Origin: an uncultured Propionibacteriales bacterium
Lineage (GTDB): Bacteria; Actinomycetota; Actinomycetes; Propionibacteriales; Nocardioidaceae
Direction: 5' to 3'
Length of the DNA: 64,000 nt
Assembly (NCBI GenBank): GCA_965653225.1
Contig: CBFGZI010000003.1
Span: 2,831-66,830, forward strand
Part shown: one piece after another, positions 3,380 to 56,655 of the stretch
How the letters are laid out: every line of letters starts with the position of its first letter
Position numbering within the stretch: the stretch's first letter is position 1
Program-made: the position numbers and the translations under genes
Notes under the pieces: model-generated
The model's database searches: none
Told to the model about the DNA's origin: nothing
What the model saw: only the letters and a program-made list of their open reading frames with translations

Positions 3380-3422
3380 GCGAATTCGGGAGTGCGTGTC
3401 GCCGGGCCGGTCGATGGACGCG

Positions 3423-40250: not shown

Positions 40251-40332
40251 CGCACTCCCATGAGACGTCGTCGTGCCACTCGTCGACACCACCATTGTCC
40301 CGCCGCCGGCGCACCAGACGAAAACCCACGCC

Positions 40333-41574
40333 TCAGATCAGGTCGAGCATCTGTTGGGAGATGTCGGTGGTGATCTGCTGTGTTTGGTCGCGGTGGTCGG
40401 TGAGCTCGCGGCCGTGTTTGGTGTGGAACCGGAACCGTCCGGCCTCGGCTCGGATGCGGAGGCGTCCGGAGTGCACGTTGCGGTGGTGGCGGGGGCACAG
40501 CGACACCATCTGGTCCAGGTCGGTGGGGCCGCCGTCGACCCAGTGGGTGAGGTGGTGCAGCTGCACCAGCCGGCTGCGGCAGCCCGGCACCCGGCAGCGG
40601 CCCCGGTCGCGCACCCGGGCACCGCGCCGCTGGGCGGCGGAGGCGGTGCGGGCGGTCCGGCCCAGCTCGATCGGCGACCCGTCGGGGGCGATCACCACCC
40701 GGGCGACCTGGGCGTCGCAGGCCAGCCGACGCACCAGGGAGGTGGGGACCGGGCCGAAGCCGTCCAGCTGCGCCGGTGCCGACCCCAGCCGGCCGACGAG
40801 GCTGTCCCAGGACAGCACCACGCTCAGGTGCGGCCGGATGCCGTTGTCCTGCGGCAGCCCGGAGTCCAGCACCGACCGGCACACGTCCCCGAGCGCGTCG
40901 GCGCGCCGCTGCCCGGCCGAGCGCCCGTCTCCGGGCTGCGGCTTGGACAGCGTGTCCAGCACCTGGGCGAGCATGGCGCCGGTCTCGGCGTCCAGCACGC
41001 CCTTGGCGACGTACTCGTCCCCGACCGGGGTGATCGTGAAATACCGCCGCTGCATCGCCTTGCGCTGCTGCTCGTCCACCCGGTCGGGGTCGACACTGTG
41101 CTGGAGTGTGCGAATCGCCTGCCGTAGGTCCCACGGGTCGTTGAGCCGGGCCAGCTCCAGCAGGGCCTCCTGCGCGGCGCGCACCGCGGCCAAACCGAGG
41201 TCGTCGACCGCACCTGCCAGCACCTCCACCTGCGCCAGCCCGATCTCGCCGGCGAGAAAGGCCCGGTGGACCTGCGGCAGGTCGGGCAGCCGCTGCCCGA
41301 CCAGCACCCGGCGGCGGGCCTCGCCGGCGCTCATGCGCAGCTGGTGTCGCAGCCATGAGGCCGCGGTGCGGGCGCCGACGTCCTTGTAGGCCTCGGTGGC
41401 CTCGAACACCGCGGTGGTCTCGGCGAACACGGCCTCCACCGGGTCACCCAGCCGGCGCAGGTCGCGCAGCCGATCTTCGAGCTGGGCGGGGGGCAGCAGC
41501 GCGAGGTTGTCCGCACCCACCGCGGCCACGGCTGCGACGAGACGGTCCATCGACGACTGCTCTGGCGAACACAT
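40333..41574 (-). CDS. HNH endonuclease with DUF222 N-terminal domain (REP13E12-type selfish gene family)
   Basis: N-terminus ...TAASWLRHQLRMSAGEARRRVLVGQRLPDLPQVHRAFLAGEIGLAQVEVLA (DUF222). C-terminus CRVPGCRSRLVQLHHLTHWVDGGPTDLDQMVSLCPRHHRNVH (HNH). Confidence 0.85.
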   Translation of the reverse strand: MCSPEQSSMDRLVAAVAAVGADNLALLPPAQLEDRLRDLRRLGDPVEAVFAETTAVFEATEAYKDVGARTAASWLRHQLRMSAGEARRRVLVGQRLPDLPQVHRAFLAGEIGLAQVEVLAGAVDDLGLAAVRAAQEALLELARLNDPWDLRQAIRTLQHSVDPDRVDEQQRKAMQRRYFTITPVGDEYVAKGVLDAETGAMLAQVLDTLSKPQPGDGRSAGQRRADALGDVCRSVLDSGLPQDNGIRPHLSVVLSWDSLVGRLGSAPAQLDGFGPVPTSLVRRLACDAQVARVVIAPDGSPIELGRTARTASAAQRRGARVRDRGRCRVPGCRSRLVQLHHLTHWVDGGPTDLDQMVSLCPRHHRNVHSGRLRIRAEAGRFRFHTKHGRELTDHRDQTQQITTDISQQMLDLI

Positions 41575-41696
41575 GTTCGAACACTATGGCCCCCACGTCG
41601 CCCCGCGCAGCAGCGCAGACCAACCTGTGCACAACCCCGGCAACGTCACTACCTGTGGACGAAAACCGGCCAGAGAGCGCTCGCGACCAGGGCGGA

Positions 41697-42348
41697 CTAC
41701 TCAGCCGACGGACGCAAGGACACAACTTTGGCACCTGCCGAGGCCCGCTTCCCAACCCCGCCGCTGCGCCCCTTGCGGCGTCGCCGAGGTCGACTGTCGT
41801 TCTGCCGGTCCAGGTAGGACTCGTATGCCAGGACCTCACGTGCGATGAGCCGCGAGTCGGCGGGCGGCAGGACTTCCTCCCGAACCTCGTTGTCCTCGAC
41901 GCGGATAAGGAACAGCTCCTTGTCGTCGCGCCGGCACCCCGCGATGACCCCGTCACAACGATGGTCGAAGGTGAACCTGCCGAACGAGGGCAGTCCGCTC
42001 TTTGACGCGTGCGCGTCCGGCCGCAGGAAGTGGTCGATCAGGTATCTCATCCACGCAGTGGGGTCGTAGAACCTCTCGTAGCCGTTGTAGGCGAGGCAGC
42101 AACCTCCCCAACAGGGCACCCAGTCGCAGTGCAACCCCGGCTGGCCCGGGGCCGCCTCGTTGAAAGATCTCGACCGGCACGTCGTCTGCGCGCTCTTGGT
42201 CAGCGGCAGGATTCGGTGGCACTTCGTAGGGACCACCCGGTCGTGCGTATCTCCGGGATGCGCTGAATGCCTGGAGGTACGCCGTCTCGTCGTCGTTGAG
42301 CATCGGCTCGATGTCAACGTGACCGATGAAGTCCGTCGTGTAGCCCAT
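41697..42348 (-). pseudogene. Conserved-looking hypothetical gene interrupted by a +1 frameshift at an A/T run near 42163-42165
   Basis: MGYTTDFIGHVDIEPMLNDDETAYLQAFSASRRYARPGGPYEVPPNPAADQERADDVPVEIF (frame of ORF 41953..42522) continues sensibly only in the frame of ORF 41697..42317 (NEAAPGQPGLHCDWVPCWGGCCLAYNGYERFYDP...). Total length is 3n+1. Confidence 0.6.
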
Positions 42349-42361
42349 CGCAGATCCGGAG

Positions 42362-42721
42362 GTGCTCCCCGTCGACAGCAGGATCGACCAGTACGAAGAG
42401 GCTCGAGACCTGCTGTACGAGACGATGCAGGGACTGCCGCTGCCCGGGTTCGCCGGCCCAGACACCCGGCACCTGGTGGTGACCGTCCTGGTGCGACCGG
42501 GCCTGACGATTCTCGGCCGCAACGAGTCGCAGTGGCTCCGTGCCTGGCGCTACAGCAACCACCTCAGGGGAGCCTTTGACGGCGACATCGTGCTCGTGAC
42601 CGAACACGGCTGGGTGCACTGGCCGTCCGACTGGGGCGGCCATGAGCCACGGATGCAGCCCGCTGACCATCCGCCGGGACAGGCCGCCGACACAGTTCCC
42701 TCCCAGTACGGGCTCGCCTAG
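42362..42721 (+). CDS. Hypothetical protein
   Basis: GC3-rich ORF. Only 13 nt from the divergent start at 42348, so the true start may be ATG 42425. The 3' end overlaps the convergent helicase stop by 4 nt. Confidence 0.4.
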   Translation: MLPVDSRIDQYEEARDLLYETMQGLPLPGFAGPDTRHLVVTVLVRPGLTILGRNESQWLRAWRYSNHLRGAFDGDIVLVTEHGWVHWPSDWGGHEPRMQPADHPPGQAADTVPSQYGLA

Positions 42722-44377
42722 AGACCCAGCCGCTTCAGCACCTCAGGCCCGCCGACGGCACCGACGTACGCCGGGTCGCCGCACACCACCAGCTGGTCGC
42801 GTGCCCGCGAAAGTCCGACGTACAGCCGTTCCCTGGACCGCTCCTTCGGCTCCGACTCGTTGAGCGCGAGGACGACCGCTGGGCGTTCGAGACCCTTGAA
42901 CCCGAGCACGTGCCCGTAGAACACCTGCTCCTCGTCCCAGAAGGACTCCCAGTAGACGTCCTGGCCCTCCTCCTGTCGGGCCGCCTGCTCCGGGTGCTTG
43001 CTGCGAGCCGCCAGCAGAGCGATGTCTCCCGGCCGCCACCCTTCGTCGATCAGCGCGTCCACCTGGTCATCGGCGACGTCGAGGGCCTCGTCGGCGCCGC
43101 ACTCGACGAAACGAACGGCAGGACCGTCGACATCCACCAACCGCATGCGCATCGGCGCCAGCGGCGAGAAGGTGTCGGCGATCTGCCTGGTGTTACGCAG
43201 GTTCTGGTCGAGCACCAGCGGTACGAGAGCGATGGGCGGCCCACCGAAGCGGGCGAAGATCCGCTGGCCCTCGTCGGTGAATACGTACACCCCTCCGGCA
43301 TCGCCATCGCGCAGCGCCGCCAGCAGCACCGACCACCACGCGTCGGCGAAGTCCTGCGCCTCGTCGACCACGACCGCGTCGAACCGCTTCCCCGGCGGGA
43401 GCTCAGCCGCCATCCCCACCATCTGCGCGGGAAGCCGATGCTCCCAGAAGTCGCTGTCGTCGTCGGACTCCATCTCGGCTCCCCACTGCTCGCCGAGACC
43501 GTGGAACGTGCCGACGTACGCCGGGCGCTGCCTCCACGGCAGCAGCACCGCACGCTTCTGCATAAAGCGTGCGAGGCCTCGCGAGTAGCACATGAGCGCG
43601 ACGCGTTGGCCCTCGTGGCTCAACCGAACGCGCCTGCTCGAGCGCGAGCCACGTTTTGCCGCTGCCGGCGCCACCACGGATCTCGACGCGCTTCAGCATC
43701 CGCGCGGCGTCGAGCAGGATCGCCTGCTGTTGGGTCAGCCGGTCGATTCGCGCCTCATGCTCGGTGGCCGCCGCGACCAGGTCGGCCTGCGGGTGGGTCC
43801 GGCCATGCAGGATCTCGCGCAGGTCGGCGATGTCGGCCTTGCTCGCGCGCGGCTTGGCGTTCTGCTGCCGGTCGAGCATGTCCCGCAGCTGTGCAGCGAG
43901 TCCCGGCAGGTCGTGCCGTCCCGCGATCGCCCACCGCGGACACGCGGGAGTGGCAAAGCTGTCGTCGACGTCGGTGAACGGCAGAACGACTGCGTGCGCC
44001 CAGCGGACGCGACGCCGGTGCCAGCGCTCGTCGTTGTCGGCGTACTTACGCGCCGCATACATCCCGTTGCGCGCCTGACCCACCGGGTCGATCACCCGGC
44101 GGCCGTTGTTCCACGGCTGCGTCCACTTTCCGTCCGGCTCACAGCGAACGACGCTGCCCTTGACCTCGAGGACGACGAAGCCGTGGCCGGCAAGCCCGAC
44201 CAGGAAGTCGAGCTCGTAGTCCTGCCTGCGGTCGGTGAGCCTCAGGTTGGGAACAAGGAGGTCGTCCTCGTCGAGCTGGCCGCGCAGGCCCTCCCACACG
44301 ACACGCTCGCTGTCGGTGGTGAAGACCGGCGAATCTGTCGACACCATGGACTTCTCTCTCCCCGCTTGCTCGTACAT
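42718..44377 (-). pseudogene. NERD nuclease-related domain fused to an SF1 (UvrD-like) helicase, interrupted by a +1 frameshift just after the Walker A motif (near 43627)
   Basis: ORF 43403..44377 gives the NERD motif (DYELDFLVGLAGHGFVVLEVKG) and GGAGSGKTWLALEQAR. The sequence then continues in the frame of ORF 42718..43677 (RLSHEGQRVALMCYSRGLA...VVVDEAQDF...LDQNLRNTRQI...LYVGLSRARDQLVV). Total length is 3n+1. Confidence 0.75.
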
Positions 44378-44384
44378 CTCCTGG

Positions 44385-45359
44385 TCAATCCTCGCGGGCT
44401 CGGTACGCGTGCCAGATCTCCGGGCGCAGCCTTCCCTTGTCGGGTACGGCGAAGCCCTCCTCCCGCGCCCACGCGCGAACCTCAGCGGTAGTCGGTTCCA
44501 CCGGTGCCGGTGGTCCGGCGGCAGGCAGACCTGACACCACCGCGGCGGCCGGAGCCTCCTGCCGCACCTCCGCCAGCGCAGCGCCGAGGAACCGGTAGGT
44601 CCACTCCTGTGCCAGGGCGCGGGTCTCGCAGAACATGATCGGCACCGTCGGGAACCGCACCTGGCACTCCGCGAGTCCCTCGGCCACCACAGAAGGTCGA
44701 ACCCGGCTCAGCCTGAAGACCTCGGAGTAGCGCGCCTCGACCACGACCGCCGCACGTCCGACAGCGGCCAGGTCGGCCAGCACGTAGCGCAACTTGCCGG
44801 CGGTCAGCGTGGATACCAGGTCCTGCAGGCTCTTGCGCTCGACCGCGGCGACGATGTCACCGTCGTGCTCCACGCCGTAGTCACCGGCGGGCAGACCGCG
44901 TCGGCTCGTAGTCGCCTGCTGGTCGGTGAACTTCCAGGCGTAACGCTCGTGGGAGTCCACGATGATAGGCAGGTCGGTGATCCCGGACGCCCGTGCGGTC
45001 GGCACGACGACGTTCGGGCGAGCCTGCTTCGCCGTACGCGCGCTCTGCCAGAAGATCGCCTGACGGCCTCCGCGAATGCGCGTGAAAACGATCTGCGACC
45101 TGTTCTCACGACCTCGGTCGAGTACGAGGTCGATCGCGGCCCCGCGTTGCACGCACGAACGGACCCGCACCCGCTCGACGACCTCGGCCTGCGCGGGCCA
45201 CTCGTCCGCAGGGTGGCAGTAGACCTTGCTCAGGCGCGGCCAGGTGTCACGCGCCTTGAGGACGACCCCCTCGGACCCGAGCGGCAGCCTGATCAGGTAC
45301 GGCAGCGACGAGTCCGGGTCCGGGTTGCGCGCGATCAGGAAGTCGTCGTACACGGCCAT
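44385..45359 (-). CDS. ERCC4 (XPF/Mus81-type) nuclease domain protein with an unrecognised N-terminal domain and an Lsr2-like C-terminal DNA-binding tail
   Basis: LPAGDYGVEHDGDIVAAVERKSLQDL matches the ERCC4 GDx(n)ERKx3D signature. The C-terminus TTAEVRAWAREEGFAVPDKGRLRPEIWHAYRA resembles the Lsr2 C-domain (..[29 protein letters not shown]). It starts 14 nt after the recD stop. Confidence 0.75.
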   Translation of the reverse strand: MAVYDDFLIARNPDPDSSLPYLIRLPLGSEGVVLKARDTWPRLSKVYCHPADEWPAQAEVVERVRVRSCVQRGAAIDLVLDRGRENRSQIVFTRIRGGRQAIFWQSARTAKQARPNVVVPTARASGITDLPIIVDSHERYAWKFTDQQATTSRRGLPAGDYGVEHDGDIVAAVERKSLQDLVSTLTAGKLRYVLADLAAVGRAAVVVEARYSEVFRLSRVRPSVVAEGLAECQVRFPTVPIMFCETRALAQEWTYRFLGAALAEVRQEAPAAAVVSGLPAAGPPAPVEPTTAEVRAWAREEGFAVPDKGRLRPEIWHAYRARED

Positions 45360-45373
45360 CAGTCTGCAGCAGC

Positions 45374-47245
45374 TCAGGCCCTTCCGCGCAGCCCACTCGC
45401 CCGGACGATCGGCCGGCGCACTGCGGCATCCAGCGCGTCCCGAGTACCGATGACCCGGACGTGCTCCTTGGCGCGCGTGACCGCGGTGTAGAGCAGCTCG
45501 CGCGTCAGTAGCGGTGACTCGGCCGGCGGCAGCACGACCGTCACGCGGTCGAACTGGCTTCCCTGGCTTCGGTGCACCGACATCGCATGCACCGTCGTCA
45601 CGTCCGAGAGCCGGCTGGTCGGCAGCGTCGTGACGACACCGTCGCGACGGAACGCGGCCCGCGGATGCCCGCCGTCGTCGACGACGACGCCGCTGTCGCC
45701 GTTGAACAGCCGCAGCTGGTAGTCGTTAGACGTGACCAGCAGCGGTCGCCCGACGTACCAGAGCCCTTCGCGTCCGTAGCCCTCGATGGCCTCACCGAGC
45801 CACTCCTCCACCAGCGCGCCCCACTGCGCGACCCCGTGCGGCCCCTCGCGGTGCCCGCACAGCAGGCGGTGCCGCTCCAGCGCGGCGAGTGCACCAGCTG
45901 CGTCGCCGTTTCGCGCTTTCTTGGTGAGCTCGGTGCCTGCCTTCACCACGTCGGTGCGGACGGAGTCGAGCTCGGTCGTCGTCGCCGGGTCGTCCTCGAC
46001 GAACTCGATGCACGTGTAGTCCTTCGCGACCACGCCCGCCACGACGTCGGGGTCGCCGCTGCGGATCGCCTCGGCGAGCTCCTGGATCTCCTCCGAGAAC
46101 CGGTACACGTGCGAGAGCCGCACGACCCCGGCCGCCAGCGCGCGCTCACGCTCGTGGTCGGGAAGCCCGGCGAGGTCTTGCGCCGCAAGGTCCCCGACAC
46201 CCTTCGTCTCCTCGAGTACCGGTGCGACCGGCCGCTCGACCAGGTCGCCGAGGACGGCGCCGACCTCCACCGAGGCAAGCTGGTCAGGGTCGCCGACCAG
46301 GATCAAACGGCTTGTCGGCCGCAGCGCCTCAGCCAGCCGCGCCATCATCGTCAGCGACACCATCGAAGCCTCGTCGACGACGACCACGTTGTACGGCAGC
46401 CGGTTGTCGCGGTCGTGCCAGAACCTGGTGCGCGCACCGGGCTTGTAACCCAGCAGCCGATGCAGTGTCGACGCCTTCAGCTCTCCGAGCCGGTCGCGGT
46501 CCTCGGAGCTCAGACTGTCTGCGGCGGCGGTGGCGGCCTCCTGCAGGCGGGCAGCCGCCTTCCCGGTCGGCGCCGCCAGCGCGATCCGCAGACGACCGCC
46601 CTCGAGGTCCTGCAGGACGGCCAGGATCTTGGCGACCGTTGTGGTCTTCCCGGTACCGGGTCCACCCGCCAGGATGCTCAGCCGCCGGTGCGCCGCGACC
46701 ACCGCGGCGAGTCGCTGTCGGTCGGCTCCGTCGTCGGGGAAGAGCCGCGCGACGGCCTGCGCCAGCGCGGCCGCGTCCACGGCCTCCCCCGACCGCGACG
46801 TCGCCGAGTCCACGTAACCGGCGATCATCTGCTGCTGCCGCCAGTAACGGTCGAGATAGAGCAGCCCGTCCGCCCACCGCAGCGGCCGGTCCTCCGGCCC
46901 GTCGGCACCGACCGCGGTCAGCCGGCTCGCCTCCACCGCCGAGACCCAGGCGTCCGCCTCGGGCCAGGGCAGCGCCGCGACATCTTCCGCGGAGACGCCG
47001 TCCACCGCGGTCGTCTCCGCCGCGGCCGCGAGGTCCACGCACACCGACCCCTGCCGCACGGCGCGTACGACCAGCGCCGCCGCGAGCAGGACCCGCTCGT
47101 CGCTCTCGCCGCCGAGTCGCTCCAGTCGCTGCGCCACGTGTACGTCAGCGGCGCCGAGTACGCCGGCGTGGTTGAACTCCGCGAGCAGTCCCTCGACGCG
47201 GCGTACCTGCTGCGCGTCGAGCATGTCGGGCACCGTCACGGTCAT
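45374..47245 (-). CDS. recD: Exodeoxyribonuclease V subunit alpha
   Basis: ILAGGPGTGKTTTVAKIL (Walker A), VVVDEASMV (Walker B), AMSVHRSQGSQFD, LLYTAVTRAKEHV. 4-nt overlap with recB. Confidence 0.9.
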   Translation of the reverse strand: MTVTVPDMLDAQQVRRVEGLLAEFNHAGVLGAADVHVAQRLERLGGESDERVLLAAALVVRAVRQGSVCVDLAAAAETTAVDGVSAEDVAALPWPEADAWVSAVEASRLTAVGADGPEDRPLRWADGLLYLDRYWRQQQMIAGYVDSATSRSGEAVDAAALAQAVARLFPDDGADRQRLAAVVAAHRRLSILAGGPGTGKTTTVAKILAVLQDLEGGRLRIALAAPTGKAAARLQEAATAAADSLSSEDRDRLGELKASTLHRLLGYKPGARTRFWHDRDNRLPYNVVVVDEASMVSLTMMARLAEALRPTSRLILVGDPDQLASVEVGAVLGDLVERPVAPVLEETKGVGDLAAQDLAGLPDHERERALAAGVVRLSHVYRFSEEIQELAEAIRSGDPDVVAGVVAKDYTCIEFVEDDPATTTELDSVRTDVVKAGTELTKKARNGDAAGALAALERHRLLCGHREGPHGVAQWGALVEEWLGEAIEGYGREGLWYVGRPLLVTSNDYQLRLFNGDSGVVVDDGGHPRAAFRRDGVVTTLPTSRLSDVTTVHAMSVHRSQGSQFDRVTVVLPPAESPLLTRELLYTAVTRAKEHVRVIGTRDALDAAVRRPIVRASGLRGRA

Positions 47246-50200
47246 GCGACGTCACCCCCGTCGAGCAAGTCGGACAGGTCCTGCGCCAAGGCGGGTGGCG
47301 GCGCCCACGAGAACACCCCGCACGGGACCCCGCCGACGACCGGCGTCTCCTCGCCGCACATGCCACGCAGGAACAGGTAGAGCACGCCGCCGAGGTGTAC
47401 GGCCGGGTCGTACGCCGGCTGCCGCCACCGCAGGAAGCGGTGCAGCGCGACCGAGTACAGCAGCGCCTGCAACGGGTAGTGCGCGTGCCGCATCGCGCGA
47501 GCCAGCGCCTCGGGCTGGTAGTGCTGCGCGGTCAGCGGGCCGTCTCCGCCGAGCCAGTTGGTCTTGTAGTCGACGACGAGGTAGCGCACCTCGCCGTCGT
47601 CCTTCCGCACGCGCAGCACTGCGTCGATGCTCCCGGTGAGGAAGCCTCGCATCCGCTGCGACGCGAGCACCGGCGCCGCCAGGTCGTCGGCGTAAGCGGC
47701 GAGGGGGTCGTCGTCCTGTAGATGGCGCCGCAGCAGGGTGGCGATCCGACCCACCGCCGCCCCGCCGGTCGGCACATCGCCTCCCGCAAGTGGCAGCTCG
47801 AACTCGAGCTCGTCGAGCCGGTCACCGGTCGCGATGTCGGCGAGCCGTCGTCCGTCCGCCAGCGGCCCCAGTGGTGTTCGCAGCGATGGCAGCAGCGCGT
47901 CGGCGAGCACGTCCGCGGGCACGTTGACGAAGCGTTCCGCACCCGCACCGGCGCACGCCTCCACCAGCGCCGACCGCAGGTCGGTCGCGGCGAAGTCGAC
48001 CTCCTCCAGCACGCGGTGCACGAGCGTGCCGAACGCCGCACCGCTGGGCAGGTCGACCATCGGCGACACCGGCCAGGTCTCGTCGGGCTCGGCCTCCTCA
48101 GAGGTCGGCTCGCCCTCCGGCCCGACCGGCAGCTCGTCGATGACACCGGGGGTCTCCGGCTCACTGGTGACGCGTGCTGCGGTTTCCTCATGAAGGGCCG
48201 CGGTCAGCCTGGAGTACGAGGTGCGCGCCCATACCAGGTCGAGTGCACGGTCGAACGCCCGCACGGACAGCTCGGGGGTTTGCGTCCTCTCGACGGGAAG
48301 CACCTCAGAGGCGCCGCGGTAGACGGGCTCCACGCTGACGCCACCGCCGGACGTGGCCGCGATGGCGGTCAGCCGCTCCTTGGCTTCGTAGTCGGTGGGG
48401 ATCGCCACCCTGTCCGGCACCACCCCGCCGTTCTTGCGCTCGCCGAACAGCAGCCGGTGCCACGGGGCGCAAGGGGTGTTGTTGGTCGGCGCCCAGTACG
48501 TCACGACCTGGCACTTTGCGCGAGTGAGCGCGACGTACGCGAGCCGCAGCGACTCCCCCGCGTCCTCCGCCAGGTGGGCCTCCTTGTGCTCGTCGTACGC
48601 GGGGCCTCCGCGTGAGCCCACGTCGAGCACCCGCGCCCCGGTGTCGTCGTGCAGCTTGAGCGGATCGGGGTCGGTGGGCACCCAGCGGCTCCACAGGTAC
48701 GGCGCGTAGACGACCGGGAACTGCAGCCCCTTGCTGCGGTGCACGGTGAGCACCTGCACGGCCTTGGCGTCGGACTCCAGCCGCCGGCTGCGCTCTTCGT
48801 CCGGGTCCTCTCGGGACTCGGCGATGCGGTGCTGCAGCCACTCGACCAGCGAGGCCACGCCGCCGTGCACCTGCGTGGCCTGGGCGTGCAGTGTCTGGCC
48901 GATGTGGCGAAGGTCGGTGAGGTCGCGTTCGCCGTCATCGTGGGCAAGCACGCGTGCGGTGAGGCCGTAGGTCGCGGTGACGCGCTCCAGCAGAGCGGCG
49001 ACACCACTTCCGGTCAGGACGCCGGCCCACTCGCGCAGGCGTGCGCCCAGCTCGTCGAGCTGTTCGTCGCTGGCGGTGGCGAGCTGCTCGGCAGTCCAGC
49101 CGACGAAGTCCGTCAGCGCGGCGGCACGGGCGAGGCCGGGACGCTGCGGCTGCTCGAGCGCGGTCAGCAGTGTCAGCCAGTCACGCGCGGCTGCGGACCG
49201 GAACACGCTGATCGTGCCGAGGAGCACGACGGGCACACCGGCGACGTCGAGCGCGTCGCGGACTGTGAGGCCGTCCTCGTTCCGCTGCACGAGCACGGCG
49301 ATGTCGGCGGGCTCGAGAGACCGCTTGTCGCCGTTATCGGTGATCCGGGCGTCGGAGCACAGCAGCTTGACGATGTCGGCGGCGACGTCGTCGGCGATGA
49401 ACGGACGCACGTCGGGGACCGTCAGAGGTTTGTCCGGTTCCTCGACGCCGAGTGCCTTGCGGGGCACGGCGCGGATGCGCAGGGGTGCGTCGACGGGTGC
49501 CCCGGAGAGGGTGGGTTCGGGGTGTCCGGCGTTGACGTCGTGCACGAGGATGCGCGGGTCGCCGAGCGCGACGTCGCCGATGACGTGTCTCAGCGCGTCC
49601 ACCAGCGGCCGGTCGCTGCGCCAGTTGGTGCCCAGCGTCGCCTTCGTGGCCGCAGCCTCCGTGGCGAGCAGGTAGGTGACGACGTCGGCGCCGCGGAAGG
49701 CGTAGATGGCCTGCTTCGGGTCGCCGATGAGCACGAGAGTGCGGTGGCCGTGGAATGCGCGCTCGAGGATCTCCCACTGCACCGGGTCGGTGTCCTGGAA
49801 CTCATCGACGAGCACGATCTTGTAGCGGCTGCGCACCCGCGCGCATGCGTCCTCGCCGGTCTCGGGGTCGGTCAGCGCGTTGCGCAGGTGGACCAGCAGG
49901 TCGTCGTAGTCCATGACCCGCATGGCCCGCTTGCGCTGAGCGACGGTGTCGCGCGCGCGTTCGGCAAAGCGGTACCGGACCGCCGCCTCCGGGTAGGTGG
50001 CGCGGTCGGCGTCGGCGGGCTCTAGGCGTGCGGCGGGGTCGCCGACCGCCTCCTTGGCGACGCTCGTCGCGATGCCGAACCTCAGGGGCGTCTCGGTGGG
50101 GTCTGGGCTGCCGTAGTCGGCGACGTACAGGTCGGTGGCGACGTCGGTGACCAGGTCGCCGGTCCACTCCGCGAACGTCACGTCGTGGTCGACGTCGGCC

Positions 50201-50619
50201 GCGATGCCCATGCCGGCGAGCATCTGGTGGCAGAAACCATGTGTGGTGGCGATGGTGGCGGCGTCGAAGTTGGCGGCGGCGGTCGCCAGGCGCTGTCGAC
50301 GTACGTCGACCTCTGCGTCGCTCCCCTGCGCCAGGTGGCGGATGAGGTCATCCATGGAACTGCGGGCGGCGTCGATGTCGTCGAGGCTTGTCGTCGCCTC
50401 GACGAGCCGCTCGCGGACCCGTTCGCGCAGCTCGGCCGTGGCCGCGCGGCCGAAGGTCACGAGCATGAGCTCGTCGATGCGTGCGACCCCTTCGGCGAGG
50501 TAACGCACCGCGAGACCGGCGATCGTGTAGGTCTTCCCGGTGCCGGCGCTGGCCTCGAGAACGGTCGTGCCTTCGGGCAGCGGCCCGCACAGGTCGAAGA
50601 TGGGAGGCGTAGGCGTCAT
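47242..50619 (-). CDS. recB: Exodeoxyribonuclease V subunit beta (UvrD-type helicase + PD-(D/E)XK nuclease)
   Basis: VLEASAGTGKTYTIAGL, VLVDEFQDTDPVQW, TVHRSKGLQFPVVY, C-terminal GFLTGSIDAVL...LVVDYKTNWLG nuclease motif. ATG 50619 overlaps the recC stop (ATGA). Confidence 0.9.
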   Translation of the reverse strand: MTPTPPIFDLCGPLPEGTTVLEASAGTGKTYTIAGLAVRYLAEGVARIDELMLVTFGRAATAELRERVRERLVEATTSLDDIDAARSSMDDLIRHLAQGSDAEVDVRRQRLATAAANFDAATIATTHGFCHQMLAGMGIAADVDHDVTFAEWTGDLVTDVATDLYVADYGSPDPTETPLRFGIATSVAKEAVGDPAARLEPADADRATYPEAAVRYRFAERARDTVAQRKRAMRVMDYDDLLVHLRNALTDPETGEDACARVRSRYKIVLVDEFQDTDPVQWEILERAFHGHRTLVLIGDPKQAIYAFRGADVVTYLLATEAAATKATLGTNWRSDRPLVDALRHVIGDVALGDPRILVHDVNAGHPEPTLSGAPVDAPLRIRAVPRKALGVEEPDKPLTVPDVRPFIADDVAADIVKLLCSDARITDNGDKRSLEPADIAVLVQRNEDGLTVRDALDVAGVPVVLLGTISVFRSAAARDWLTLLTALEQPQRPGLARAAALTDFVGWTAEQLATASDEQLDELGARLREWAGVLTGSGVAALLERVTATYGLTARVLAHDDGERDLTDLRHIGQTLHAQATQVHGGVASLVEWLQHRIAESREDPDEERSRRLESDAKAVQVLTVHRSKGLQFPVVYAPYLWSRWVPTDPDPLKLHDDTGARVLDVGSRGGPAYDEHKEAHLAEDAGESLRLAYVALTRAKCQVVTYWAPTNNTPCAPWHRLLFGERKNGGVVPDRVAIPTDYEAKERLTAIAATSGGGVSVEPVYRGASEVLPVERTQTPELSVRAFDRALDLVWARTSYSRLTAALHEETAARVTSEPETPGVIDELPVGPEGEPTSEEAEPDETWPVSPMVDLPSGAAFGTLVHRVLEEVDFAATDLRSALVEACAGAGAERFVNVPADVLADALLPSLRTPLGPLADGRRLADIATGDRLDELEFELPLAGGDVPTGGAAVGRIATLLRRHLQDDDPLAAYADDLAAPVLASQRMRGFLTGSIDAVLRVRKDDGEVRYLVVDYKTNWLGGDGPLTAQHYQPEALARAMRHAHYPLQALLYSVALHRFLRWRQPAYDPAVHLGGVLYLFLRGMCGEETPVVGGVPCGVFSWAPPPALAQDLSDLLDGGDVA

Positions 50620-53600
50620 CCTTGGCGTGTCTCCTCGGCCGCCAGCAGCGGTGACCACACGCGCCGCGCGAGCTGCCCGAACAGGTGAGGCTCCTCGGGG
50701 TAGGTGCCGTCAGCCTCGGGCGGGTGGTCGAGTAGCGCCTGGATCTGTACGTCACCCCACACCAGCCGGTTCTGCGCGTCGCCGAACTCGCCGAACTCCT
50801 GGGGACCCGATCCCTTCCGCCGCCACGCGCTCCTGGCGTACGTCACCGCCGTGTGCACGGACTTGCCGTCGCCCCGCTTCTCGGCGTACCGGCACGAGGT
50901 CTCCGGCGGCAGCGGCAGGGGGAACGTGAGCCCGGTGCGGTGGACCTTCACCAGCGTGTCCAGGTGTGCGAGCGCGTCCTGCGGGCTGACGTCGCGAAGG
51001 AACGAGCCGAGCACGTTGCCGCCGCGCCAGTCGGGGTTGCGTCCGACGGTGGCGGCACGCCACGCGCTCTCGGAGGCGTGCGCCTGTAGCGCCAGGAGAT
51101 AGACCCAGGCGCGCAGACGGTGCTTTGGCGAGAGCTTGGAGTAGACGACGCGCACGATGCAGTCGCCGTGGATGCTCGGCACCGTGCCGGCCAGCGTCAC
51201 ACCCGACGGGAGGGTGACGGACACGTCGGCCTGCGTCGGGTCGATGCTGCGCAGCCGCGCACTGGTGTCGACAAGCTCGGCCACCTGCTCGGCGATGGGG
51301 GTGACGATGTCGTCGCCGAGACGTCCCGGCGGCAGCTGTCCGCGCAGCCACTCGGCCCGGACGGCGCGGTCGTCCGGGATGCCGGCCACACCGGCACGCA
51401 GGAGTCGGTCGCCCACTGACCACCTCTCGAGCCCGTCGGGGTCGACCGGGATAGCGTCGCTGGGCTCGTCCTCCTCGTCGGTGGTGCTCAGCTCGAGACG
51501 CTGGCGGAGGAAGCCCCTGGCCGGGTGCTCGAGGAAACGGACGAGCGCGTCGAGCTCGACGACCTGCGGCGGGTCCGGGTCTGGGACCGGCGCGGGGAGG
51601 AACGGCGGTCGGGGTCGCCGTTCGCGGAGCAGCGCCCGGCTGCCCTCATACGCGGACCGGTCGAAGCTGAACGGCTCCTCGCGCACCATGTCGCCGGCGA
51701 CGAAGTTGCGGGCGTCGAAGGGCTGCAGCGGATGGCGGGTGAGGACACGGTCGCGAGCACGTCCTGTGGGGACCTGAGCCGTGCGGTCGAGGACGTCGAG
51801 CAGCTCGCCGAGGGGTACGGCCGGCGGGCGCTCGGCGCCGGTGCGCTCGTCGGCGCCGGAGTAGACGCAGACGAGCCGCTCCTTGGCCGCGAGGATCGCG
51901 TCCAGGAACAGCTGACGGTCCTCCGCGCGGGCGTCACGCTCGCCCACGTGCGGGCGGCGGGCGAGGATGTCGTCGCCGTCGACCCGGGTGGTGCGCGGGA
52001 AGACGCCGTCGTCGAGGCCGAGCAGGCACACAACCCGATGCGGCACCGAGCGCATCGGGACCATCGTGCACATGGTCAGCGCACCGGTGCGGAAGTTGGC
52101 CCTTGTCGGGCGTCCCTTCAGGCGCTCGCCGAGCAGTGCGCGTACGTCGGAGAGGCGGAGCGCGGTCCCCTCGGTGTGGCCTTCGGCGGCCGTCAAGGTG
52201 TCGGCGAGCTGCCAACGCGCCTGGGAGACCTGCCACGAGTCCCGCGGGCTGACCGCCACGAGGCTCTCCACCGCATCGCCGAGGGCGGCGAGCCACTTGT
52301 CCAGAGTCTGCTCGCGGTTGAGGGCCTCGACGGCTGCTGCGAGGCGGTCAAGGAGCTCGGCCAGCCGGCCGGCGAGGTCGATCTCGTTGCTGTCCACGTC
52401 GTCCAGCGGGAGCGTGCCGTCGACGCTGCGCAGGTCGTCCTCGGCCATCGTCACGCCGACGAGAATGCGGTCGAGACCCGACTGCCAGGTGTTCTGGTGG
52501 AACTCACCGAGGCCGAAGCTGCTGCGCGCCTCGGCGTCGAGCCCCCAGCGCACGCCGGATCGGCGTACCCAGTCGCCGACCCGCTCCAGCGAGTCGTCGT
52601 CGAGGTGGAACCTCCGGCGTACTGGCGGCATCGCGGCGAGATCGAGCACCTCGGAGGCGGTCAGCCGCGAGTCGGCGAGCTCGAGCAGACGTGCCGCAAC
52701 CGCGAGGACGGGGTTGGTCTGGCGCAGCGACCTGTCGGCGAGCCGGACGCTCAGGCGATGGCCCGGGTGGGCGTTCTCGCTCCATTCACCACTGGCATCG
52801 TCTAGGTCCGATGCCGACAGGCCGAACGCGGCCGCAACGAGAGGCGCGTACGACTCGATGTCGGGGCACATCACGATGAGGTCGCGCGGCTCGAGCGTCG
52901 GATCGTCGGCGAGCAGCCCGAGCAGCACCTCGCGGAGCACCTCGACCTGGCGCTGCCGACCGTGGCAGGCGTGGACCTGCACCGACGTGTCGTGGTCCCC
53001 CAGCAGATGCTCACCGGTCGGTGCCCGGTCGGCGTGGATGTCGCGTTGCAGTGCTGCCAGCAGCGTCTCGCCGTCTGGCTCGACCGGGATGTGCTCGTCG
53101 CTATCCACGCGCGTATTGGCCTGCAGACGCAGCTGCATCTCCCGAGCGTCACGCCCGAGCGAGCGGACCAGCGGATGCTCAGGAACGTCGGCCGTCGGGT
53201 CGTCGCGGCGGGTCGGGACCCGCAGCTGCGTCTCTGCGGTCGCCTCCGCGACGTGCTCCCAGAGTCCCGAGGACGGGTACGGCAGCCACACATGCATTTC
53301 CCGCTGGGCCGCCAGCGCGTCGAGCACCTGGATCTCGGCCGTGCTCAGCCGTGTCGGTCCGAAGATCGACAGTCGCTCCGGCAGCTCCACCAGCGCAGCC
53401 TGGTCCCGCAGCTGGGCCACGGCTTCCTCTGCCCGTTCCGCGGGACTCGCCACGCCGATGCGGTCGCGTAGCCGCCGCCACAGCTCCGCCTGCCACCGGT
53501 GGTCGGCGTCGAGCGGGTCGCCGTACCCGTCGCTGTCGCGCCCGTCCAGCCAGTCGCGAACCATCGTGGGCCGCTGCGCGCCGTACGAGGCGAACAGGCC

Positions 53601-54029
53601 GGCCACCTTCTGCGCGACCGCCATGCGCCGCCCCTGGTCGACCGCGCCGTCGATCAGGCCCAGATGCCGGCCGAGCGTGCGACACCACGCCTCCGAGGCG
53701 CACCCGTCGATGACCTCCAGCAGCGGCCACGGCAGCCGGTGCTGGGCCCACGGGTCGTCGTCTGCGTCCATACCCGAGCCGGCCGCGACCGCCTCGCGCA
53801 CCAGCCGCCCGGGCGACGGGAACACGACGTTGGCGCACACTCCGTCGCCGCGGCCCTCTTGTGTGCCCAGCACTGACGAGAGCGACTGCGCGATCCACCG
53901 CTCCACGCCCCTTGACGGCACCGCCACCACATCAGGCGTGAACGGGTCACCCGGCGCCGCGCGCAGCACGCCCGCAAGGCCCGCAACCAAGGCGTCAGCC
54001 CGCTCGGCTCGGTGGATCCTCAGCGGCAC
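50616..54029 (-). CDS. recC: Exodeoxyribonuclease V subunit gamma
   Basis: About 1137 aa. N-terminus LRIHRAERADALVAGLAGVL...VAVPSRGVERWIAQSLS is typical of RecC. Start set to the in-frame GTG (codon 43 of ORF 50616..54155). Confidence 0.9.
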   Translation of the reverse strand: MPLRIHRAERADALVAGLAGVLRAAPGDPFTPDVVAVPSRGVERWIAQSLSSVLGTQEGRGDGVCANVVFPSPGRLVREAVAAGSGMDADDDPWAQHRLPWPLLEVIDGCASEAWCRTLGRHLGLIDGAVDQGRRMAVAQKVAGLFASYGAQRPTMVRDWLDGRDSDGYGDPLDADHRWQAELWRRLRDRIGVASPAERAEEAVAQLRDQAALVELPERLSIFGPTRLSTAEIQVLDALAAQREMHVWLPYPSSGLWEHVAEATAETQLRVPTRRDDPTADVPEHPLVRSLGRDAREMQLRLQANTRVDSDEHIPVEPDGETLLAALQRDIHADRAPTGEHLLGDHDTSVQVHACHGRQRQVEVLREVLLGLLADDPTLEPRDLIVMCPDIESYAPLVAAAFGLSASDLDDASGEWSENAHPGHRLSVRLADRSLRQTNPVLAVAARLLELADSRLTASEVLDLAAMPPVRRRFHLDDDSLERVGDWVRRSGVRWGLDAEARSSFGLGEFHQNTWQSGLDRILVGVTMAEDDLRSVDGTLPLDDVDSNEIDLAGRLAELLDRLAAAVEALNREQTLDKWLAALGDAVESLVAVSPRDSWQVSQARWQLADTLTAAEGHTEGTALRLSDVRALLGERLKGRPTRANFRTGALTMCTMVPMRSVPHRVVCLLGLDDGVFPRTTRVDGDDILARRPHVGERDARAEDRQLFLDAILAAKERLVCVYSGADERTGAERPPAVPLGELLDVLDRTAQVPTGRARDRVLTRHPLQPFDARNFVAGDMVREEPFSFDRSAYEGSRALLRERRPRPPFLPAPVPDPDPPQVVELDALVRFLEHPARGFLRQRLELSTTDEEDEPSDAIPVDPDGLERWSVGDRLLRAGVAGIPDDRAVRAEWLRGQLPPGRLGDDIVTPIAEQVAELVDTSARLRSIDPTQADVSVTLPSGVTLAGTVPSIHGDCIVRVVYSKLSPKHRLRAWVYLLALQAHASESAWRAATVGRNPDWRGGNVLGSFLRDVSPQDALAHLDTLVKVHRTGLTFPLPLPPETSCRYAEKRGDGKSVHTAVTYARSAWRRKGSGPQEFGEFGDAQNRLVWGDVQIQALLDHPPEADGTYPEEPHLFGQLARRVWSPLLAAEETRQG

Positions 54030-54280
54030 GTCTCTACCCCCGTGTCTGCCACCTAGCGACCATAACGAACAGGTCGGACTGTCTACAGGTGGTCCACAGG
54101 TACAGCAGGCTCCCTTGCAGGCGGTCAGGTGCCCTCTGGTCCGGCGTATCCACATCGGGAGCGGTGAACAACAATCCTTCCCTCGGGTGTGTCACTCCGC
54201 TCCGGACGCCCGGAAAGCGCCTCGTCGTCCGCGCCGCACCGCGGACATGCGACAGCCGGCATCACACCTCCTTCAGGAGC

Positions 54281-54778
54281 TCATCCACGCGGATGATCCG
54301 GCGGAAAAATCCGGACCCCCCCAGACCCGATGACGCACGAGGTCGCCTGCGACCAGATCTCGTTGAGACGGGAGGCTGCTGGTTCTCGCACCTCGACTCC
54401 AGAGGACTGCAAGTAGTTCCACGGGACTTGATCGACCAGTTCCAGCAGCATATTGGTGTCTACTCGCTCTTCGACGGGTATGCACTGGTGCCACCGAACG
54501 TCGATGTACGACGTAGTGCGGTCGCCACCGTCCCAGTGCATGTCCTTGAAGGGCACACTCGTTGCCTCCCCGCGGGCAACCAGACCGCGTCCCTTAGTCC
54601 CCTGGCGCAACAGAAAGACGATGTCGCCGGGTGCTACACCCCTGACTCTGTTACCGACGCTCCACGTACCCTCGATGACTCCGCCTTGCGCCGTCTGCTC
54701 CACGTAGGCGTTCCAGTCATCGCTGAGAGCCGGCCACTTATCGGGGTTCCAGGTGAGCAGGATCGTTCGGGCCGTCAT
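54281..54778 (-). CDS. Hypothetical protein, possibly PUA/EVE-like fold
   Basis: 165 aa. ILLTWNPDKW...GTWSVGNRVRGVAPGDIVFLLRQGTKGRGLVARGEATS... resembles EVE/PUA-like beta-barrel modules by eye only. 4-nt overlap with the upstream XRE gene. Confidence 0.45.
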   Translation of the reverse strand: MTARTILLTWNPDKWPALSDDWNAYVEQTAQGGVIEGTWSVGNRVRGVAPGDIVFLLRQGTKGRGLVARGEATSVPFKDMHWDGGDRTTSYIDVRWHQCIPVEERVDTNMLLELVDQVPWNYLQSSGVEVREPAASRLNEIWSQATSCVIGSGGVRIFPPDHPRG

Positions 54779-55287: not shown

Positions 55288-55291
55288 CGCC

Positions 55292-55340
55292 TATGCTCCT
55301 TGCATAACTCTGCTCTGTGCATTATGCTGCTCTCAGCATA
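55292..55340. promoter_or_regulatory. Two related inverted repeats (candidate operators) in the 78-bp divergent XRE / vWA intergenic region
   Basis: TATGC-tcctt-GCATA (55292-55306) and TATGCTG-ctct-CAGCATA (55323-55340). This is the most AT-rich stretch locally, and GGGGAGGG precedes the vWA ATG. Confidence 0.5.
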
Positions 55341-55365
55341 AGAGTACGACATAGGGGAGGGAACC

Positions 55366-56634: not shown

Positions 56635-56655
56635 GCGACCAGCACTGTCGGTGCC

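What the first reader, a model, noticed from the sequence alone, without database searches (positions are those of the whole stretch)
42718..54029. The recC-recB-recD operon continues directly into an ERCC4 nuclease and a NERD-SF1 helicase
Seen in the sequence:
- Five same-strand genes are packed with 4-nt overlaps (recC/recB and recB/recD), a 14-nt gap (recD to ERCC4) and a 7-nt gap (ERCC4 to NERD-helicase).
- I saw no hairpin or AT-rich promoter-like tract in those gaps.

Established knowledge: canonical recBCD operons end at recD. RecBCD is both a double-strand-break repair engine and a front-line degrader of linear foreign DNA. NERD+SF1 single-chain nuclease-helicases resemble the Nhi-type immunity architecture.

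Inference: the two extra genes may form an accessory nuclease/helicase module that is co-expressed with, and functionally coupled to, RecBCD. For example, it could create or process DNA ends on invading DNA. I do not know of this arrangement being described.
Basis: partly seen in the sequence, partly recalled or inferred. Interest (0 to 1): 0.75.

Follow-up and report, generated by a model that had tools for sequence, protein, structure and literature searches.

The report
recBCD operon with two add-on genes
A normal recC-recB-recD repair operon is followed by a free-standing, plasmid-borne type of nuclease gene and a broken nuclease-helicase gene, and comparison with related genomes suggests a recent, lineage-specific patchwork rather than a conserved five-gene system.

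Summary
The gene order and spacing are real. On the minus strand, recC, recB and recD are followed by an ERCC4 nuclease gene after 14 nt. A NERD-SF1 helicase gene follows 7 nt later (37 nt from the likelier start).

Two points change the picture:
- **The helicase gene is broken.** It is 1660 nt long, and one extra base just after the Walker A motif splits it into two ORFs. All homologues are single chains of about 545 aa.
- **The two extra genes are not a conserved pair.**

ERCC4 also carries an Lsr2 DNA-binding domain. It belongs to a very large, uncharacterised actinobacterial family that also occurs on plasmids and has no conserved neighbours. recBCD lies directly upstream in 1 of 80 surveyed genomes and within 10 kb in 3 of 80. 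Only the nearest relatives share the tight recD-ERCC4 junction, and they lack the helicase gene.

The helicase family lies loosely near recBCD in one clade only (9 of 14 informative loci), with variable spacers and orientation. It is not Nhi.

Read-through transcription from recBCD is plausible. A dedicated accessory module is not supported.

The parts
50616..54029 (-). recC (exodeoxyribonuclease V gamma subunit). The start is the GTG at 54029.
   Evidence: TIGR01450 scores 898.7 bits against a cut-off of 582.9. Pfam Exonuc_V_gamma and RecC_C both match. The start region was read.
47242..50619 (-). recB (exodeoxyribonuclease V beta subunit). Its ATG overlaps the recC stop as ATGA.
   Evidence: TIGR00609 scores 732.4 bits against a cut-off of 696.05. 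UvrD-helicase and PDDEXK_1 match. The junction was read.
45374..47245 (-). recD (exodeoxyribonuclease V alpha subunit). It overlaps the recB stop by 4 nt.
   Evidence: TIGR01447 scores 514.3 bits against a cut-off of 310.15. RecD_N, AAA_19/30 and UvrD_C_2 match.
44385..45359 (-). ERCC4-Lsr2 protein, 324 aa, in three parts:
- a conserved beta-rich N-terminal domain (about 1-106) with no Pfam family;
- an XPF/Hef/Mus81-type ERCC4 nuclease (134-257) with an intact VDSHE...GD...ERKS..D motif;
- an Lsr2-type DNA-binding domain (289-321).

The gene lies 14 nt after recD.
   Evidence: Pfam ERCC4 scores 48.6 bits and Lsr2_DNA-bd 34.3 bits. Invariant catalytic residues are seen in A1. PDB sequence matches are Hef 1J22 and Lsr2 2KNG/6QKP. 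The AF2 model (pLDDT 82) matches Hef 1J24 in Foldseek at E=5e-8 with TMt 0.76.
42718..44377 (-). NERD nuclease + SF1B-like helicase gene, disrupted (1660 nt). The likely true start is the ATG at 44347. As sequenced it gives ORF 43403..44377 (NERD + Walker A + out-of-frame tail) and ORF 42718..43677 (the rest of the helicase).
   Evidence: Searches show the split. Pfam NERD scores 31.7 bits and UvrD_C_2 32.8 bits. An AF2 model of homologue P0121 gives a helicase core closest to SLFN11, IGHMBP2, RecD2, Upf1 and Dna2.
43626..43628 (-). Frameshift site: one extra nucleotide (the T in GCGCGTTCGG) relative to all four aligned homologous genes, just after the Walker A motif GAGSGKT.
   Evidence: MAFFT DNA alignment with L085, L086, L087 and L032. 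Deleting either T restores ...EQARRLSHEGQRVALMCYSRGLA....
42362..42721 (+). Small convergent ORF (119 aa, no Pfam family) that abuts the helicase stop. Its homologue in the nearest relative abuts the ERCC4 stop instead.
   Evidence: coding-like GC3. Window 42453-42655 is 86% identical to L176 3624-3420. The L176 gene call 3339-3602(-) is. No Pfam hit.
41697..42522 (-). Second apparently frameshifted gene (MGYTTDFIGH... / ...GQPGLHCDWVPCW...), function unknown.
   Evidence: Two overlapping same-strand ORFs. The joined protein aligns over residues 1-165, across the junction, in a single tblastn piece to Enterococcus plasmid hypothetical proteins. L177 has the N-terminal part.
40333..41574 (-). 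DUF222 + HNH endonuclease gene (multi-copy actinobacterial family). It is a recurrent neighbour of both extra genes in relatives.
   Evidence: Pfam DUF222 scores 144 bits and HNH 23.8 bits. It is adjacent to ERCC4 in L081 and L082 and near the NERD-helicase in L085, L087 and L088. It occurs in 10 of 80 ERCC4 loci.
39843..40295 (-). Small ORF (150 aa, no family). In relatives it sits between recD and the NERD-helicase.
   Evidence: tblastn gives 62-69% identity in L085 (3329-3688) and L086 (303-617).
54030..54330 (-). Region upstream of recC. It holds a terminator-like hairpin (54330-54311) after the preceding ORF, then about 250 nt that probably carries the recCBD promoter.
   Evidence: The promoter itself is inferred and was not detected by the sigma-70 scan.

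Best explanation
The window carries a canonical, intact recC-recB-recD operon. The stretch downstream of recD varies between related genomes, and three separate things sit there.

**1. ERCC4-Lsr2**
- It is a free-standing gene of a very large actinobacterial family.
- The protein has an unknown beta-rich domain, an XPF/Hef-type structure-specific nuclease and an Lsr2 minor-groove/AT-rich DNA-binding domain.
- The family moves between chromosomes and plasmids and has no fixed partners.
- In this lineage it landed 12-14 nt behind recD and is probably transcribed by read-through.

**2. NERD-SF1B nuclease-helicase**
- Its domain order resembles Dna2 and Schlafen.
- Its more deeply conserved partner elsewhere is a TY-chaperone gene.
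- In one clade, apparently centred on Nocardioidaceae, it was ancestrally located somewhere near recBCD.
- Here it is a 1.74-kb indel relative to the nearest relative, and a 1-nt insertion has inactivated it.

**3. Other genes further downstream**
- A second frameshifted gene, a DUF222-HNH gene and a small ORF follow.

The 'five-gene operon' is therefore a recent mosaic, not a conserved RecBCD accessory system.

**Inferred mechanism for the intact extra gene**
- It probably acts as a dimeric ERCC4 endonuclease that cuts branched or flapped DNA.
- The Lsr2 domain would tether it to AT-rich DNA.
- Any ends it makes would be ordinary RecBCD substrates, without dedicated coupling.
For: **Shown**
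- Operon identity.
- Frameshift, while homologues are single chains of about 545 aa.
- The ERCC4-Lsr2 family has more than 6000 clusters and is about 65-72% identical across Actinomycetes and Acidimicrobiia.
- Across 80 genomes the neighbours are unrelated, and about half are on the opposite strand.
- recBCD is directly upstream only in L024, with a 145-nt repeat-filled spacer, and within 10 kb in L003 and L008.
- ERCC4 relatives at 79-80% identity sit beside DUF222-HNH, a SLFN-like helicase plus MazG, or a lipase.
- There are 22 full-length plasmid copies, including the M. liflandii plasmid pMUM002 and a 21-kb M. lentiflavum plasmid where the gene lies between a resolvase and ParA.
- None were found in phages or viral contigs.
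- The nearest relatives L176/L177 (RecD 89-94% identical) have recD-12 nt-ERCC4 and then DNA homologous to window 42453-42655. The helicase gene is absent.
- In L085, L086, L090 and L091 the NERD-helicase lies 0.7-3 kb after recD, with DUF222, peptidase genes on the other strand, or a hairpin in between.
- In L089 it lies upstream of recC.
- The linked copies fall in one clade.
- A TY-Chap gene is adjacent in 7 loci, down to 51% identity.
- Other window genes that were checked are intact, so the two frameshifts are local.

**Inferred**
- Read-through transcription.
- The biochemical role of ERCC4-Lsr2.
Against: - ERCC4-Lsr2 is near recBCD more often than chance would give: 3 of 80 against about 0.4 expected, Poisson P about 0.01 if the cases are independent. 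These cases fall in at least three places on the ERCC4 tree.
- The NERD-helicase stays near recBCD across RecD divergence down to about 50% identity while other flanking genes change. L174 looks like a real recCBD-TYChap-NERDhel operon.
- The tight 12-14-nt recD-ERCC4 junction is conserved between the window and L176.
- The frameshift could be an assembly error. It is not in a homopolymer, and no reads are available to check it.
Confidence: 0.68

Rival explanations
1. ERCC4 and the NERD-helicase would form an accessory nuclease/helicase module, co-expressed with and functionally coupled to RecBCD. For example, they could make or process ends on invading DNA, which RecBCD then degrades.
For: - The spacing is tight and no terminator is present.
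- The recD-ERCC4 junction is conserved in L176/L177.
- Both families lie near recBCD more often than chance predicts in some lineages.
- The Lsr2 domain could direct a nuclease to AT-rich foreign DNA (the targeting idea is inference).
Against: - The two genes are close neighbours (within about 2 kb) only here and in L032.
- The nearest relative lacks the helicase.
- The helicase is frameshifted.
- More than 95% of ERCC4-Lsr2 genes, and all NERD-helicase genes at 56% identity or below, are away from recBCD.
- No PADLOC system was detected.
Confidence: 0.1
2. The NERD-SF1B helicase, usually with a TY-chaperone gene, would be a stand-alone conflict or defence gene. In one clade it is kept beside recBCD because it monitors or backs up RecBCD. 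The window copy is a decaying remnant, and ERCC4-Lsr2 is an unrelated insertion.
For: - 9 of 14 informative loci in the clade have recBCD within 6 kb despite a changing wider context.
- L174 has recCBD-TYChap-NERDhel with a 96-nt gap and a 4-nt overlap.
- The best PADLOC matches are defence-associated NERD-helicases: RTasNERD-Hel at 3e-32 and C3a187 at 3e-20.
- TY-chaperones were predicted in counter-viral systems (PMC9503650).
Against: - The linked copies form essentially one clade, so a single ancestral placement followed by slow erosion explains the pattern.
- Spacing, order and orientation are not conserved.
- None of the 15 or more informative loci outside the clade are linked, apart from L097.
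- There is no experimental evidence.
Confidence: 0.15
3. The frameshift would be an assembly or sequencing error. The helicase would then be intact in the organism, and a five-gene operon would be expressed.
For: - A single-base difference is all that separates the sequence from a full-length ORF whose conserved motifs are all present.
- GC3 stays coding-like on both sides of the shift.
Against: - The extra base is not in a homopolymer run.
- A second neighbouring gene is also frameshifted.
- The long recB/recC/recD genes and the other genes checked are intact.
- Even if the helicase were intact, the comparative evidence against a conserved module would stand.
Confidence: 0.25

Closest known systems
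RecBCD / exonuclease V operon (E. coli; also present in mycobacteria)
   Same: recC, recB and recD each pass the NCBIfam equivalog cut-offs. They are translationally coupled by ATGA overlaps, and RecB carries a PD-(D/E)XK nuclease domain.
   Different: Two unrelated genes follow on the same strand. In the related contig L082, the same flanks (VWA/HTH on one side, ERCC4-DUF222 on the other) hold a Schlafen-like helicase plus MazG where the window has recCBD.
Archaeal/eukaryotic ERCC4 nucleases (Hef, XPF, Mus81)
   Same: The nuclease fold and the catalytic VD..E / GD / ERK...D motif are shared. Foldseek matches Hef 1J24 at E=5e-8 with TMt 0.76.
   Different: The protein is bacterial. No helicase domain or (HhH)2 domain was detected. 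Instead it has a novel N-terminal beta domain and a C-terminal Lsr2 DNA-binding domain. A 2012 survey listed the ERCC4 family as Archaea and Eukaryota only (PMC3424549).
Lsr2 nucleoid-associated protein of Actinomycetota
   Same: The C-terminal DNA-binding domain matches (PF23359; PDB 2KNG, 6QKP/6QKQ) and has a (R/K)GR-type motif.
   Different: There is no match to an Lsr2 N-terminal oligomerisation domain, and the domain is fused to a nuclease. Some databases nonetheless name family members 'Lsr2 family protein'.
Nhi (nuclease-helicase immunity, staphylococci)
   Same: A single chain with an N-terminal nuclease and an SF1 helicase (architecture only; my knowledge of Nhi comes from the literature, not from a test here).
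   Different: The PADLOC Nhi model matches only the P-loop region: 47 residues, 15.7 bits, E=1e-3. The protein is not a member.
PADLOC RTasNERD-Hel (DRT-associated) and C3a187 NERD+UvrD
   Same: These are the best profile matches to the repaired protein, at 3.2e-32 and 3.1e-20. They cover the NERD domain and the first half of the helicase.
   Different: No reverse transcriptase or CRISPR genes are adjacent. The neighbours are ERCC4 and a small convergent ORF.
Dna2 / Schlafen-11/14 / RecD2-Upf1-like SF1B helicases
   Same: The predicted helicase core is closest to SLFN11, IGHMBP2, RecD2, Upf1 and Dna2. As in Dna2 and SLFN11, a nuclease domain precedes the helicase.
   Different: TM-scores are low (about 0.35) and sequence identity is 13-18%. 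No PDB sequence relative was found at E<=1e-3. The nuclease is a NERD domain.

Membership tests
RecBCD (exodeoxyribonuclease V) | All three subunits are present and score above the curated equivalog cut-offs. | tested here: met
   recC scores 898.7 against 582.9, recB 732.4 against 696.05, and recD 514.3 against 310.15.
ERCC4 / XPF-Mus81 nuclease family | An ERCC4 domain above the Pfam gathering score, with the catalytic GDXnERKX3D signature. | tested here: met
   PF02732 scores 48.6 bits against a cut-off of 24. D135, E138, G159-D160, E174-R175-K176 and D180 are invariant in 20 homologues, including the window protein. The fold matches Hef.
ERCC4 / XPF-Mus81 nuclease family | A C-terminal tandem helix-hairpin-helix (HhH)2 dimerisation/DNA-binding domain, as in XPF, Hef and Mus81. 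| tested here: not met
   There is no HhH Pfam hit. The C-terminus is an Lsr2 DNA-binding domain.
Lsr2 nucleoid-associated protein | An N-terminal oligomerisation domain plus a C-terminal AT-rich DNA-binding domain. | tested here: not met
   Only the C-terminal domain (PF23359, 34.3 bits) matches. Residues 1-257 are the unknown domain plus ERCC4.
Nhi | A full-length match to the Nhi profile. | tested here: not met
   PDLC02372 gives E=1.1e-3 and 15.7 bits, covering residues 216-262 only.
NERD-SF1 helicase family (about 545 aa, actinobacterial) | A single uninterrupted chain with the NERD D..ExK motif, Walker A, DEAQD and the C-terminal helicase motifs. | tested here: not met
   All motifs are encoded. 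However, the reading frame is broken by a 1-nt insertion, so the window copy is not an intact member.
DRT-type defence system (PADLOC RTasNERD-Hel) | A NERD-helicase encoded next to a defence reverse transcriptase. | tested here: not met
   The profile match is 3.2e-32, but no RT was seen among the neighbouring genes.
Conserved operon / functional module with recBCD | Adjacency to recD is retained across independent lineages. | tested here: not met
   ERCC4: 1 of 80 loci directly adjacent and 3 of 80 within 10 kb. NERD-helicase: linkage is confined to one clade with variable arrangement. The two genes are close neighbours only in the window and L032.
Conserved operon / functional module with recBCD | Co-transcription of recD, ERCC4 and the helicase gene. 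| not testable with these tools
   Only indirect evidence is available: gaps of 14 and 7/37 nt, no terminator-like site, and no stable junction hairpin.

The most novel reading that the evidence does not exclude
ERCC4-Lsr2 could be an unrecognised bacterial immunity or plasmid-competition nuclease.
- Its Lsr2 domain would direct an XPF/Hef-type cutter to AT-rich, xenogeneic DNA.
- Its repeated placement beside recBCD (window/L176, L024, L008, L003) would reflect a real 'cut, then RecBCD degrades' partnership.
- The NERD-SF1B helicase with its TY-chaperone would be a second RecBCD-linked conflict gene in the same hotspot.
Probability: 0.08. Interest if true: 0.75.

Novelty: new variant of a known kind. 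Interest (0 to 1): 0.35.

Why it matters
If the coupling were real, it would show RecBCD recruiting dedicated end-making enzymes. That would bear on how bacteria tell foreign DNA from their own.

As the evidence stands, the arrangement is best read as local genome plasticity downstream of recD. Two by-products may be worth following up:
- **ERCC4-Lsr2.** This is a very large, well-conserved, plasmid- and chromosome-borne bacterial family with an unknown N-terminal domain. I found no literature on it.
- **NERD-SF1B helicase with a TY-chaperone.** This gene pair tends to sit near recBCD in one actinobacterial clade.

Tried and rejected
- **Nhi membership.** Rejected. Only a P-loop match was found.
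- **Known defence system around the locus.** PADLOC profiles on 13 neighbouring proteins gave only generic HTH and partial hits.
- **Prophage or integrative-element insertion.**
  - The window has no tRNA and no Rfam match.
  - No flanking direct or inverted repeats exceed chance.
  - No integrase was found.
  - ERCC4-Lsr2 is absent from 50,697 phage genomes and from IMG/VR. Only a 27%-coverage archaeal-virus ERCC4 hit appeared.
- **General sequencing-error explanation.** Candidate split genes elsewhere in the window turned out to be complete, separate genes.
- **Programmed frameshift.** None of the homologues has the extra base, and there is no slippery motif.
- **Hidden terminator or promoter in the junctions.** None was found.
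- **Identifying the N-terminal domain of ERCC4-Lsr2.** There is no Pfam family. The only structural hint is weak: LigD 3'-phosphoesterase 3P4H at E=0.037. I did not rely on it.
- **Solved-structure relatives of the NERD-helicase by sequence.** None at E<=1e-3.
- **Literature.** No paper mentions both ERCC4 and Lsr2, and none describes a recBCD-ERCC4-NERD arrangement.


Full report
**1. What is in the sequence**

The window is about 71% G+C. On the minus strand the genes run as follows.
- recC runs 54029..50616.
- recB runs 50619..47242. Its ATG overlaps the recC stop as ATGA.
- recD runs 47245..45374, again with an ATGA overlap.
- After a 14-nt gap comes a 324-aa gene, 45359..44385.
- After a further 7 nt there is an ATG at 44377.

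recC, recB and recD all exceed the curated NCBIfam equivalog cut-offs. Its first 100 or so residues are strongly conserved but belong to no Pfam family.

The simple scan found no terminator-like or sigma-70-like site between recD and the end of the cluster. The junction RNAs fold no better than shuffled controls. The gene order, strand, overlaps and gaps are therefore confirmed.

**2. The helicase gene is broken**

- The interval 42718..44377 is 1660 nt, which is not a multiple of three.
- It reads as two overlapping ORFs:
  - 43403..44377 holds the NERD domain, the Walker A motif GAGSGKT and an out-of-frame tail.
  - 42718..43677 holds the rest of the helicase.
- A DNA alignment with four homologous genes shows exactly one extra base in the window, GCGCG[T]TCGG at about 43627-43628.
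- Deleting it restores a 552-aa protein. That protein is 60-79% identical over 97-98% of its length to a large family of single-chain proteins of about 545 aa.
- Homologues align only from residue 9-17, and a GGAGAG motif precedes the ATG at 44347. The real ERCC4-to-helicase gap is therefore probably 37 nt.
- The next minus-strand gene (41697..42522) also looks frameshifted. The joined product aligns across the junction in one piece to plasmid hypothetical proteins.
- Other suspicious ORF pairs in the window proved to be complete, separate genes. The two frameshifts are therefore local, which favours real decay. Without reads, an assembly error cannot be excluded.

**3. ERCC4-Lsr2 is a free-standing, mobile gene family**

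- A protein search returned more than 6000 clusters. The best 120 hits all have the same ERCC4+Lsr2 architecture and are 66-86% identical. The named ones are Nocardioidaceae, Segeticoccus, Ilumatobacteraceae and Acidimicrobiia.
- The catalytic residues VD..HE, GD and ERKS..D are invariant.
- By sequence, the profile matches the Hef nuclease domain and Lsr2 DNA-binding domains in the PDB.
- An AF2 model (pLDDT 82) matches Hef, XPF and Mus81 by fold. The N-terminal beta domain has no convincing match.
- I fetched 80 genome loci with up to 10 kb on each side and searched them with the window's proteins.
  - recBCD is directly upstream only in L024.
  - It lies within 10 kb in L003 and L008.
  - The NERD-helicase is within 10 kb only in L032.
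- Clustering all flanking proteins shows no conserved neighbour. The largest non-ERCC4 cluster has 13 proteins in 11 loci, and about half of the immediate neighbours are on the other strand.
- ERCC4 relatives at 79-80% identity sit next to DUF222-HNH, a Schlafen-like helicase plus MazG, or a lipase.
- Twenty-two plasmids carry full-length copies: Mycobacterium (including pMUM002), Rhodococcus, Streptomyces and Pseudonocardia. On a 21-kb M. lentiflavum plasmid the gene lies between a resolvase and parA.
- No phage genome or IMG/VR contig carries it.
- I found no paper that mentions ERCC4 together with Lsr2. A 2012 survey listed the ERCC4 family as archaeal and eukaryotic.

**4. How the window's arrangement arose**

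- The nearest relatives are L176 and L177 (RecB 89%, RecD 89-94%, ERCC4 86% identical).
  - They have recB-recD, a 12-nt gap, ERCC4, and then DNA homologous to window 42453-42655 plus the MGYTTDF gene.
  - The 1.74 kb that makes up the helicase gene is simply absent.
- Slightly more distant relatives have the converse arrangement:
  - L085 has recD-DUF222-small ORF-NERDhel.
  - L086 has recD-small ORF-two M14 peptidase genes on the other strand-NERDhel.
- Homology between all of these breaks right after the recD stop codon. In L090 a long hairpin follows recD. In L024 the recD-ERCC4 spacer is 145 nt of tandem repeats.
- L082 shares the window's outer flanks (VWA/HTH and ERCC4-DUF222) but has a Schlafen-like helicase plus MazG where the window has recCBD.
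- The region is thus a variable slot, and the window's five-gene row is one recent combination.

**5. Is there any real linkage to recBCD?**

For ERCC4-Lsr2:
- 3 of 80 loci contain recBCD, against about 0.3-0.5 expected from the sequence examined.
- Poisson P is about 0.01 if the three cases are independent and about 0.07 if there are only two independent events.
- On an ERCC4 tree the cases fall in three places: window+L176, L008+L024, and L003. In each place the sister taxa are unlinked.
- This is a modest enrichment, not conservation.

For the NERD-helicase, I examined 80 metagenome loci plus 9 contigs found by exact look-up.
- recBCD lies within 0.7-6 kb in the window, L085, L086, L089, L090, L091, L097, L172 and L174.
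- It does not in L087, L088, L093, L173 and L175.
- It does not in any of the 15 or more informative loci whose helicase is 56% identical or less.
- Position and orientation vary: downstream of recD, upstream of recC in L089, and convergent in L097.
- Only L174 looks operon-like: recCBD, a 96-nt gap, TY-Chap, then a 4-nt overlap into the NERD-helicase.
- On a helicase tree all linked copies except L097 fall in one clade, interspersed with unlinked ones. One ancestral placement followed by erosion explains most of the pattern.
- A TY-chaperone gene is adjacent to the helicase in seven loci, down to 51% identity. It is a more deeply conserved partner, and it is absent from the window. TY-chaperones were predicted in counter-viral systems (PMC9503650).

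**6. What the helicase is like**

- Its best PADLOC matches are defence-associated NERD-helicases: RTasNERD-Hel at 3e-32 and C3a187 at 3e-20.
- The Nhi profile matches only the P-loop.
- An AF2 model of homologue P0121 (pLDDT 78) is closest to SF1B/Upf1-like cores: SLFN11, IGHMBP2, RecD2, Upf1 and Dna2.
- It has a nuclease-then-helicase order, as in Dna2 and Schlafen 11.
- No PDB sequence relative was found.

**7. Conclusion**

The layout is real, but the fifth gene is a frameshifted pseudogene as sequenced.
  - Read-through co-expression is plausible, and both families show some tendency to sit near recBCD.
  - However, they are not a pair, and neither is a conserved operon member.
  - The nearest relative lacks the helicase, most ERCC4-Lsr2 genes are elsewhere (including on plasmids), and the Nhi analogy fails.
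- My best explanation (confidence about 0.68) is a lineage-specific mosaic in a variable slot downstream of recD.
- The intact extra gene probably encodes a structure-specific endonuclease tethered to AT-rich DNA by its Lsr2 domain. That mechanism is inferred from domain content, not tested.
- The most interesting residue is the uncharacterised ERCC4-Lsr2 family itself, together with the clade-level NERD-helicase/TY-Chap proximity to recBCD.

Noticed in passing
window 41697-42522 (-): A second apparently frameshifted gene lies directly downstream of the broken helicase (MGYTTDFIGH... joins ...GQPGLHCDWVPCW...). It has no Pfam family. The joined product aligns in one piece to Enterococcus plasmid hypothetical proteins.
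   Followed up: partly
window 44385-45359 (-); plasmid loci L170, L171: The ERCC4-Lsr2 family is carried on at least 22 actinobacterial plasmids, including M. liflandii pMUM002 and 21-kb M. lentiflavum/intracellulare plasmids, where it lies between a resolvase and parA. Databases variously name it 'ERCC4 domain-containing protein' or 'Lsr2 family protein'. I found no literature on it.
   Followed up: partly
L087, L088, L110, L121, L172, L174, L032: A TY-chaperone gene (PF22551, PF22552, PF22554) lies directly next to the NERD-SF1B helicase gene in seven loci, down to 51% helicase identity. This may be a two-gene module. It is absent from the window.
   Followed up: partly
L082 4600-12400 compared with window 40340-56625: A related contig shares the window's VWA/HTH flank and its ERCC4-DUF222 flank. 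Between them it has a 298-aa gene, a Schlafen-group-3-like helicase and MazG where the window has recCBD. The recBCD operon itself may therefore sit in a replaceable slot.
   Followed up: no
window 40333-41574 (-) and 39843-40295 (-): A DUF222+HNH endonuclease gene and a 150-aa ORF with no family recur in shuffled order around recD, ERCC4 and the NERD-helicase in relatives (L081, L082, L085, L086, L087, L088). DUF222-HNH is the most frequent neighbour of ERCC4-Lsr2, present in 10 of 80 loci.
   Followed up: partly
window 54120-54330 (-): A terminator-like hairpin (54330-54311) is followed by a 46-codon ORF with CxxC...C motifs (about 54260-54120), just upstream of recC. Its significance is unknown.
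   Followed up: no
L024 9850-9995: The recD-ERCC4 spacer in this genome is filled with tandem copies of a roughly 17-nt unit (GCCGGGCGTGGCTGACA-like).
   Followed up: no
L158 499-2131: Another NERD-helicase homologue appears as three tblastn pieces (46%, 46% and 59% identity). This suggests a second, independently degraded copy of the family.
   Followed up: no
window 54775-57642: An XRE-type HTH gene (-), a VWA-domain gene (+) and an M78/IrrE-like peptidase gene (+) lie upstream of recC. The 165-aa ORF between the HTH gene and recC (54281-54778) has a low GC3 of 0.73.
   Followed up: no
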